Below are positions 4,788-5,646 of a stretch of DNA of 6,045 bases, in pieces. Below the pieces are notes generated by a model that saw only the letters and a list, made by a program, of their open reading frames with translations, did not search any database and had not been told where the DNA came from. Source of the DNA: a virus (lineage: Duplodnaviria; Heunggongvirae; Uroviricota; Caudoviricetes); the IMG/VR virus record IMGVR_UViG_2671180755_000006; one strand, written 5' to 3'. Numbering within the stretch: position 1 is the stretch's first letter; every line of letters begins with the position of its first letter. The translations under genes and the position numbers were made by a program.

Positions 4788-4960
4788 ATGCTCATAGATT
4801 TGGTTTTACCTTACCCGCCGACGGTGAACACCTACTNNNNNNNNNNNNNNNNNNNNNNNNNNNNNNNNNNGAGCAGTTTGATGAAATCAATATTGTGCGC
4901 GGTCAGCTCGTTCCTGGTGAGCGGCTGGGGATAAAAATCACAGAACTGGAGTGCGCATGA
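4788..4960 (+). CDS. rusA: RusA-family Holliday junction resolvase, interrupted by an N run; only both ends visible
   Basis: SD AAGAGG (4775-4780) then ATG 4788. N-terminus MLIDLVLPYPPTVNTY resembles RusA MNTYSITLPWPPSNNRYY; C-terminus ...GERLGIKITELECA resembles RusA ...GGRLELTITEMGNEA (both from memory). Stop TGA at 4958-4960 overlaps the Q-like ATG. Confidence 0.75.
4837..4870. other. run of 34 N inside rusA
   Basis: Seen directly. The visible N- and C-terminal rusA frames are in different phases across it (4788 vs 4871), and the visible total is far shorter than a ~120-aa RusA. Confidence 0.95.
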
Positions 4961-5646
4961 ATAACCACTATTTACAGTTTGTGCGTGAGCAGCTCATTAT
5001 CGCCACCGCTGATTTGAGTGGGGCAACAAAAGGTCAGCTTGAAGCCTGGCAGGAGAATGCCATGTTCGATACAGGGCGTTACAGGCGAAAAAAAATCCGG
5101 TACCGCGATGAAGTGACTGGAAAAATGATAACGCGGGATAATCCACCAATCCCGGGAAAGCAATCGCTGGCGAAGGTGACGTCAATTCCTCTGGTCAGTC
5201 CGGTTGAGTTTTCGACATCATCGTGGCGGCGGGCTGTTCTGTCTCTTGAAGAACATCATAAAGCCTGGTTGTTGTGGTGTTACAGCGGGAGTATTTGTTG
5301 GGAATATCAGATCGCGATAACACAGTGGGCGTGGAATGAATTTAATACTCAATCCGGTACCAGAAAAATTGCAGGGAAAACGCAGGAACGCCTGAAAAAA
5401 TTAATCTGGCTGGCGGCGCAGGCAGTAAAAGCAGAACTTTTTGGTGGGGAAGGTTATGAATACAAGGAGCTGGCATTACTGGTGGGAGTGACAACTAAAA
5501 ACTGGTCCAAAACATTTACTCGTCACTGGGTTGCAATGAAACACATTTTTCACCGACTGGATAGTGAGGCTTTATTGTTTGTAATGAGAACGCGTTCAAA
5601 ACAAAAGGCGGCATTTTCAAAGCAAAGTGTTGCAAAAGTAGATTGA
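4957..5646 (+). CDS. putative Q-like late antiterminator, 229 aa; family uncertain
   Basis: ATG 4957 preceded by GGAG (4948-4951) at 5-nt spacing (the track starts at GTG 4951); TGA at 5644-5646. Assigned mainly by position: after rusA, and overlapping a promoter-like element followed by a short leader and terminator. I do not recognise a Q motif; only 2 Cys. Confidence 0.5.
   Translation: MNNHYLQFVREQLIIATADLSGATKGQLEAWQENAMFDTGRYRRKKIRYRDEVTGKMITRDNPPIPGKQSLAKVTSIPLVSPVEFSTSSWRRAVLSLEEHHKAWLLWCYSGSICWEYQIAITQWAWNEFNTQSGTRKIAGKTQERLKKLIWLAAQAVKAELFGGEGYEYKELALLVGVTTKNWSKTFTRHWVAMKHIFHRLDSEALLFVMRTRSKQKAAFSKQSVAKVD

What the first reader, a model, noticed from the sequence alone, without database searches (positions are those of the whole stretch)
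4957..5646. Q-position protein does not look like a canonical lambda-type Q
By synteny this ORF should be the late antiterminator: it follows rusA and overlaps a promoter-like element with a short leader and terminator. I see only two Cys and no obvious four-Cys zinc-binding motif, so it may belong to a different Q family, or the assignment is wrong.
Basis: inference. Interest (0 to 1): 0.4.

Follow-up and report, generated by a model that had tools for sequence, protein, structure and literature searches.

The report
Phage 82-type Q antiterminator gene
The gene is an ordinary, already annotated late-gene antiterminator of the phage 82 (Q82) family in an E. coli O157:H7 prophage, and proteins of this family normally lack the zinc-binding cysteines seen in lambda Q.

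Summary
ORF 4957-5646 (+) encodes a 229-aa protein with two Cys (C108, C114) and no Cys4 motif. It starts in an ATGA overlap with the rusA stop. A promoter-like element, a short leader and an intrinsic terminator follow it.

It is a Q protein of the third known family, Q82 (Pfam PF06323). It scores 307.6 bits against a cut-off of 25, and neither the lambda-type nor the 21-type model hits. It is 76% identical over its full length to the phage 82 Q prototype, which has no Cys at all.

The downstream DNA fits the published phage 82 late-promoter layout at every position the source paper states in text. These are an AAA start, an extended -10-like pause element at +6 to +14, GCC at +15-17, G at +24 and T at +25.

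Verdict: already known, low interest.

The parts
4957..5646 (+). Q gene, Q82-family late-gene antiterminator, 229 aa. Putative C-terminal helix-turn-helix at about residues 168-192 (YKELALLVGVTTKNWSKTFTRHW). The N-terminal ~80 residues are partly low-confidence or flexible in the model.
   Evidence: PF06323 at 307.6 bits, E 6.8e-92. PHROG 304 'anti-termination protein Q-like', E 1.6e-107. 76% identity over 229 aa to phage 82 Q, X92588.1. The exact protein is named antitermination protein Q on at least 995 contigs. AF2 model helices H169-176 and H180-226.
4781..4960 (+). 3' part of rusA. The gene is mostly masked by Ns at 4837-4870. Its stop codon overlaps the Q start (ATGA), which suggests translational coupling.
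   Evidence: RusA-family CDS of 360 nt in L004, overlapping Q by 4 nt.
5630..5658 (+). Late promoter pR'-like: -35 TTGCAA (5630-5635), 17-nt spacer, -10 TATATT (5653-5658). By analogy with phage 82, the spacer aagtagattgaaaggca is where the Q-binding element lies. It overlaps the last Q codons and the stop codon.
   Evidence: Consensus scan. The same arrangement is conserved in phage 434, ZC-S1, CobraSix and Klebsiella phage 2. The end of phage 82 Q carries the same TTGCAAAA. QBE location is from PMC4914094.
5665..5690 (+). Initial transcribed region with a sigma70-dependent pause element. Inferred +1 = 5665 (AAA). Extended-10 TG at 5670-5671 (+6, +7). -10-like TATTTT at 5673-5678 (+9 to +14). 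GCC at 5679-5681 (+15 to +17). AT-rich +18 to +25. G at +24 (5688). T at +25 (5689), the predicted pause site. A at +26.
   Evidence: Sequence read. Every position agrees with the phage 82 pR' description in PMC5001585. The cassette is nearly invariant in about 80 contigs carrying a Q at least 95% identical.
5710..5737 (+). Intrinsic terminator (tR'-like) about 47-73 nt after the inferred start. This is the first terminator that Q-modified RNA polymerase must read through.
   Evidence: The stem is conserved in relatives, and a loop variant keeps the stem.

Best explanation
The ORF encodes the late-gene transcription antiterminator of a lambdoid prophage of E. coli O157:H7, and it belongs to the Q82 family.

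The mechanism below is inferred from phage 82. RNA polymerase holoenzyme starts at the pR'-like promoter, whose -35 lies inside the 3' end of the Q gene. Sigma70 then rebinds the extended -10-like element TGaTATTTT at +6 to +14, and the complex pauses at about +25.

[quoted passage not shown] It engages the paused complex through the beta flap tip, with help from NusA, and stays with the polymerase. The modified polymerase then reads through the terminator at 5710-5737 and later terminators.

This turns on the downstream tRNA genes and the nanS-p esterase, lysis and morphogenesis genes.

Shown here: family membership, the cis-element layout and the co-inheritance of gene and cassette. Inferred: DNA binding, pausing and antitermination.
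For: - Family: PF06323 at 307.6 bits and no other Q family hit. PHROG 304. 76% identity to phage 82 Q, 73% to the 'Q82-like' Q of phage 434 and 67% to Gifsy-1 Q.
- Classification: the three-family scheme names PF06323 as the Q82 family.
- Cis elements: promoter, AAA start, extended -10-like element at +6 to +14, GCC at +15-17, G at +24 and T at +25 all match the 82 pR' description.
- Terminator: present and stable.
- Conservation: the same architecture occurs in distant family members. It is co-inherited almost unchanged with the gene in about 80 viral contigs.
- Context: the matching genome shows tRNAs, then a TerB-family gene, DUF3927, a SASA esterase, holin and lysozyme downstream.
Against: - No experiment here. 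The transcription start, pause and readthrough are inferred from sequence.
- The phage 82 pR' sequence itself was not available as text, so the match is to positions described in a paper, not to an aligned sequence.
- The -35/-10 spacer differs from that of phage 82/434 at 3 of the 11 comparable positions. The putative recognition helix has charge changes (K185/R189 here, E/E in 82). Cross-specificity with 82 Q is therefore unknown.
- The promoter scan hit alone is weak: 9 of 12 matches, and six such sites in the region against 1.6 expected.
- The matching strain carries an IS1203 in the late region, so the prophage may be defective.
Confidence: 0.93

Rival explanations
1. The gene is intact but biologically idle. 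It sits in a defective prophage whose late operon can no longer produce phage, so Q has no consequence for the host.
For: IS1203 is inserted between the esterase gene and the holin gene in the matching strain. From general knowledge, many O157:H7 lambdoid prophages are defective.
Against: The ORF is intact, and the gene and its cis cassette are nearly invariant across hundreds of genomes and about 80 viral contigs. Q-modified polymerase reads through terminators, so an IS insertion need not block downstream expression. This reading concerns consequence, not identity, so it does not contradict the family assignment.
Confidence: 0.15
2. It is a strongly diverged lambda-type Q that has lost its zinc ribbon. 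It would then be a member of the lambda Q family rather than a separate family.
Confidence: 0.05
3. It is not an antiterminator but a conventional DNA-binding activator or repressor that happens to sit in the Q position.
For: It has a predicted HTH. Distant family members in N15-type phages are annotated loosely as 'late transcription activator'.
Against: It is 76% identical to phage 82 Q, a biochemically characterised antiterminator. The full pause-plus-terminator cassette required for Q action lies immediately downstream.
Confidence: 0.02

Closest known systems
Phage 82 Q (82Q / Q82), prototype of Pfam PF06323
   Same: Same length (229 aa) and 76% identity over the whole protein. No zinc motif. 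Same gene position after rus/rusA. Same promoter -35 (TTGCAAAA) inside the 3' end of the gene. Same initial-transcribed-region layout: AAA start, extended -10-like element, GCC at +15-17, T at +25.
   Different: 55 substitutions, including K185/R189 here against E/E in the putative recognition helix. Two non-conserved Cys. Three differences in the comparable part of the -35/-10 spacer. In phage 82 a small ylcG-like orf45 separates rus from Q, whereas here rusA overlaps Q directly.
Q of PPompW prophages of STEC O145:H28 and phage vB_EcoS-689R5
   Same: 99.1% and 98.3% protein identity. The same pR'-pause-terminator cassette, with one T-to-G change in the U-tract of PPompW. tRNA genes follow.
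   Different: A different set of tRNAs (Met-Lys-Arg) and different downstream content, including an ISEc20 insertion.
Lambda Q (PF03589)
   Different: No detectable sequence similarity. Lambda Q has a Cys4 zinc ribbon (residues 114-152) that contacts DNA and the RNA polymerase zinc-binding domain. The lambda pause is at +16/17, with the -10-like element at +2 to +7.
Pseudomonas aeruginosa AlpA (PDB 7XYA/7XYB) and phage 21 Q (PF06530)

Membership tests
Q82 family (Pfam PF06323) | Sequence match to the family profile above the curated threshold | tested here: met
   307.6 bits against a cut-off of 25, covering profile positions 2-217 of 220. PHROG 304, E 1.6e-107.
Q82 family (Pfam PF06323) | Full-length homology to the phage 82 Q prototype | tested here: met
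   76% identity, 229 of 229 residues aligned without gaps.
Q82 family (Pfam PF06323) | Gene at the end of the nin/rus region, immediately upstream of the late promoter | tested here: met
   rusA overlaps the start. Promoter, terminator, tRNAs and the lysis genes follow.
Q82 family (Pfam PF06323) | Cognate late promoter with an extended -10-like pause element that places the pause near +25 | tested here: met
   Sequence layout only: TG at +6/+7, TATTTT at +9 to +14, GCC at +15-17, T at +25, as described for 82 pR'. Pausing itself was not tested.
Q82 family (Pfam PF06323) | Q-binding element bound by the protein; beta flap-tip interaction; NusA-stimulated terminator readthrough | not testable with these tools
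   These need footprinting, two-hybrid and in vitro transcription assays. The properties of 82 Q are taken from PMC4914094.
Lambda Q family (Pfam PF03589) | Sequence match to the family profile | tested here: not met
   No hit at E <= 0.1. hhalign probability 0.17% against lambda Q.
Lambda Q family (Pfam PF03589) | Cys4 zinc ribbon ('arm') | tested here: not met
   Only two Cys, six residues apart, and neither is conserved.
Lambda Q family (Pfam PF03589) | Four-helix body with a canonical HTH | tested here: inconclusive
   [not shown]
Q21 family (Pfam PF06530) | Sequence match to the family profile, or a clear fold match | tested here: not met
   [not shown]

The most novel reading that the evidence does not exclude
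This Q and its promoter spacer could form a DNA-specificity variant that is orthogonal to phage 82 Q.

The putative recognition helix carries charge-reversing differences: K185 and R189 here, against E and E in 82 and 434. The -35/-10 spacer, where the 82 Q-binding element lies, differs at three positions: GTAGATTG here, CTGGATTA in 82/434.

If this reading is right, co-resident Q82-type prophages in enterohaemorrhagic E. coli would not cross-activate each other's late genes.
Probability: 0.3. Interest if true: 0.25.

Novelty: already known. Interest (0 to 1): 0.07.

Why it matters
It matters little as a discovery. The result removes a false alarm: the absence of a four-Cys motif is exactly what a Q82-type antiterminator should look like.

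Two general points remain. First, the Q82 family has no experimental structure. Whether it forms a closed nozzle on RNA polymerase, as Q21 and lambda Q do, was named an open priority in 2022 (PMC9388147). Second, in E. coli O157:H7, Q proteins control late operons that in sister prophages carry Shiga toxin genes, so knowing which Q type each prophage has is useful for annotation. This window adds no new information on either point.

Tried and rejected
- NCBIfam: no model matched.
- PDB by sequence: the single-sequence search gave only a spurious hit to a Listeria phage lysin (1xov, E 5e-4). The profile search gave nothing.
- First AlphaFold run: the shallow alignment (56 sequences, at least 69% identical) gave an unusable model, pLDDT 49. 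It was replaced by a run on a diverse alignment.
- Full-text search for the initial transcribed sequence TGATATTTTGCC: only unrelated papers. The supplements of the two phage 82 papers are not held. The 82 pR' sequence therefore could not be aligned directly.
With the close alignment it returned only relatives at least 95% identical. That was enough to show co-inheritance, but not enough to test covariation between the HTH and the spacer.
- The afdb50 fold library was unavailable. The BFVD viral library returned only one family member and noise.
- Gifsy-1 did not align in the promoter region, so I left it out of the cis-element comparison.

Full report
**What is in the sequence**

The window has an ORF from ATG 4957 to TGA 5644-5646 on the + strand, 229 aa. 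It has exactly two cysteines, C108 and C114, and no CxxC pairs. The upstream frame, the 3' part of rusA, ends in a TGA at 4958-4960 that overlaps the ATG (ATGA). A GGAG lies 6 nt upstream of the ATG.

Most of rusA and all of hokD are hidden by N runs at 4837-4870 and 3238-3346. These runs are collapsed masks. In the matching genome the hidden stretches are 221 and 197 nt, and rusA is an intact 360-nt gene that overlaps Q by 4 nt.

Three elements follow the ORF:
- a sigma70-type promoter-like site, TTGCAA (5630-5635), 17 nt, TATATT (5653-5658);
- a short leader;
- an intrinsic terminator, CCCGC-ccacaa-GCGGG followed by T7 (5714-5736, extendable to 5710-5733 with A:U pairs).

The leader 5665-5740 folds at -24.3 kcal/mol, z = -3.3.

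**Where the window comes from**

It matches a lambdoid prophage of E. coli O157:H7 over all unmasked bases except one. The best hit is NZ_CP062761.1, and the single difference is at 4991. The window has Q12, which is invariant in the family, while that strain has L12.

298 complete E. coli genomes carry at least 80% of the window. RefSeq annotates the gene as 'bacteriophage antitermination protein Q'. The exact 229-aa protein is found on at least 995 public contigs under the names 'antiterminator' or 'bacteriophage antitermination protein Q'.

**Which Q family**

- A Pfam scan gives one hit, PF06323 Phage_antiter_Q, at 307.6 bits (cut-off 25), E 6.8e-92, covering nearly the whole profile. No other family hits at E <= 0.1.
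- PHROGs gives phrog_304, 'anti-termination protein Q-like', E 1.6e-107.
- tblastn against phage genomes gives 99.1% identity to Q of the PPompW prophages of STEC. It gives 76% identity over all 229 residues to phage 82 Q (X92588.1), 73% to the 'Q82-like' protein of phage 434 and 67% to Gifsy-1 Q. There is a tail down to about 26% identity in N15, PY54, phiKO2 and VP882.

Published work divides Q proteins into three families with no sequence similarity: Q21 (PF06530), lambda Q (PF03589) and Q82 (PF06323) (PMC9388147; PMC7171158). The protein is thus a typical Q82-family member.

**Why there is no zinc motif**

The zinc ribbon is a feature of lambda Q only (residues 114-152). Phage 82 Q has no cysteine at all. 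Of 58 aligned relatives, 28 have none. The two Cys of this protein sit at variable positions: C/N/S at 108 and R/C at 114. Lack of a Cys4 motif is the family norm, not an anomaly.

**The cis elements**

Bird et al. 2016 (PMC5001585) describe phage 82 pR' as follows:
- transcription starts with AAA;
- there is a -10-like pause element with an extended -10 that ends at +14, and insertions at +9 and +15 bracket it;
- a GCC discriminator lies at +15 to +17;
- an AT-rich stretch lies at +18 to +25;
- G is at +24, U is at the +25 pause end, and the base at +26 is not G.

Taking +1 as 5665, seven bases after the -10 hexamer, the window reads AAA (+1 to +3), TG (+6, +7), TATTTT (+9 to +14), GCC (+15 to +17), GATTTTGT (+18 to +25) and A (+26). 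It agrees at every position that the paper states in text.

Wells et al. 2016 (PMC4914094) place the 82 Q-binding element between the -35 and -10 elements. Here that spacer overlaps the last codons and the stop codon of Q.

The 3' end of the phage 82 Q gene carries the same TTGCAAAA -35. Its spacer differs at three positions: CTGGATTA in 82, GTAGATTG here.

The same architecture recurs in phage 434, Salmonella ZC-S1, Enterobacter CobraSix and Klebsiella phage 2, and partly in phiES15. It consists of the -35, the -10, C/T-ATG-C/T-AAAT-C/T-TG-A/G-TAT, and then a terminator.

Of 80 IMG/VR contigs whose Q is at least 95% identical, nearly all carry the whole 115-nt cassette almost unchanged. One terminator-loop variant keeps the stem. 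Gene and target site are inherited as a unit.

**Structure**

No PDB entry is related by sequence, either to the single protein or to a family profile.

A first AlphaFold run on a shallow alignment failed, with pLDDT 49. I added 37 distant family members from a profile search. The model then reached mean pLDDT 79.7 and pTM 0.68, with residues 82-220 mostly above 88. The model has:
- two N-terminal helices;
- a poorly defined stretch at residues 30-74 with a small hairpin;
- a helical body;
- a helix-turn-helix-like pair, H169-176 and H180 onward, over the sequence ELALLVGVTTKNWSKTF.

This reproduces what Wen et al. 2022 (PMC9371919) reported from their own AlphaFold models. [quoted passage not shown] At the sequence-profile level there is no signal: hhalign probability is 0.17%.

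The fold similarity is suggestive, not proven, and it is not new.

**Mechanism**

By homology with phage 82 Q, the most likely sequence of events is:
1. sigma70 holoenzyme initiates at 5665;
2. sigma region 2 rebinds TGaTATTTT;
3. the complex scrunches and pauses at about +25;
4. Q bound to the promoter spacer contacts the beta flap tip, helped by NusA, and joins the elongation complex;
5. the complex then ignores the terminator at 5710-5737 and later ones.

Downstream in the matching genome lie three tRNA genes, a TerB-family gene, a DUF3927 gene, a SASA (NanS-p type) esterase, an IS1203, holin, lysozyme and the rest of the late operon.

Family membership and the cis-element layout are shown here. 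Binding, pausing and readthrough are inferred. Whether Q82-type proteins close a nozzle around the RNA exit channel or form an open shield with NusA is unresolved in the literature.

**Rivals**

- A zinc-less lambda-family member is contradicted by the absence of any PF03589 signal and by the different pause position.
- A plain activator or repressor is contradicted by 76% identity to a biochemically characterised antiterminator and by the complete pause-plus-terminator cassette.
- The prophage may be defective (IS1203 in the late region). This is possible, but it concerns consequence, not identity.

**Verdict**

The object is a known, correctly annotated Q82-family antiterminator with its cognate late promoter. 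Novelty: already known. Interest: low.

One small open point remains. The differences from phage 82 in the putative recognition helix (K185 and R189 here, E and E in 82) and in the promoter spacer might define a separate DNA specificity.

Noticed in passing
window 3238-3346 and 4837-4870: The two N runs are collapsed masks, not gaps of true length. They stand for 197 and 221 nt in the matching genome. They hide hokD and most of rusA, which makes rusA look truncated and frameshifted in the window.
   Followed up: yes
window 3042-3216 (+): Sok antitoxin RNA (Rfam RF01794, 114.9 bits), next to the masked hokD toxin gene. This is a type I toxin-antitoxin module inside the prophage nin region.
   Followed up: partly
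window 5819-6045 (+): A tRNA cluster lies just after the late terminator. The first gene, 5857-5932, has anticodon CAT, and RefSeq calls it tRNA-Ile (ileZ-like). The second, 5940-6016, is Arg-TCG. A third tRNA is cut by the window end. A promoter-like TTGCAA-17-TATTAT at 5819-5847 sits directly upstream, so the tRNAs may have their own promoter as well as Q-dependent readthrough.
   Followed up: partly
window 5622-5635 (- strand): TTGCAACACTTTGC fits the CII-box consensus TTGCN6TTGC. It lies where phage 434 is annotated with a CII site and the antisense promoter paQ, and it overlaps the pR' -35. This prophage, however, has a YdaT-family gene in the cII position.
   Followed up: no
[not shown]
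   Followed up: yes
window 5675-5703 (+): A second hairpin (UUGCCGAU...GAUGGCAAA) forms in the leader between the pause site and the terminator. It contributes to the leader's low folding energy, z = -3.3. Its function, if any, is unknown.
   Followed up: no
window 3726-4775 (+) and 207-971 (+): There is a DUF968 protein with a C-terminal HNH-like Cys/His motif (PF06147, 257.6 bits; phrog_96 'HNH endonuclease') and a DUF1627 protein with winged-helix-like N-terminal repeats. Both are typical of EHEC lambdoid prophages and have no established function.
   Followed up: no
L004 15393-16606 (NZ_CP062761.1): An IS1203 is inserted in the late region between the SASA esterase gene and the holin gene of the same prophage. 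This may make late expression polar or the prophage defective.
   Followed up: no
L016 (Vibrio phage VP882) and L014 (N15): The PF06323 family extends at about 26% identity to the Q proteins of linear plasmid-prophages (N15, PY54, phiKO2, VP882, phiHAP-1). In those phages the gene sits next to cro or a DksA-like gene rather than at the end of a nin region.
   Followed up: partly
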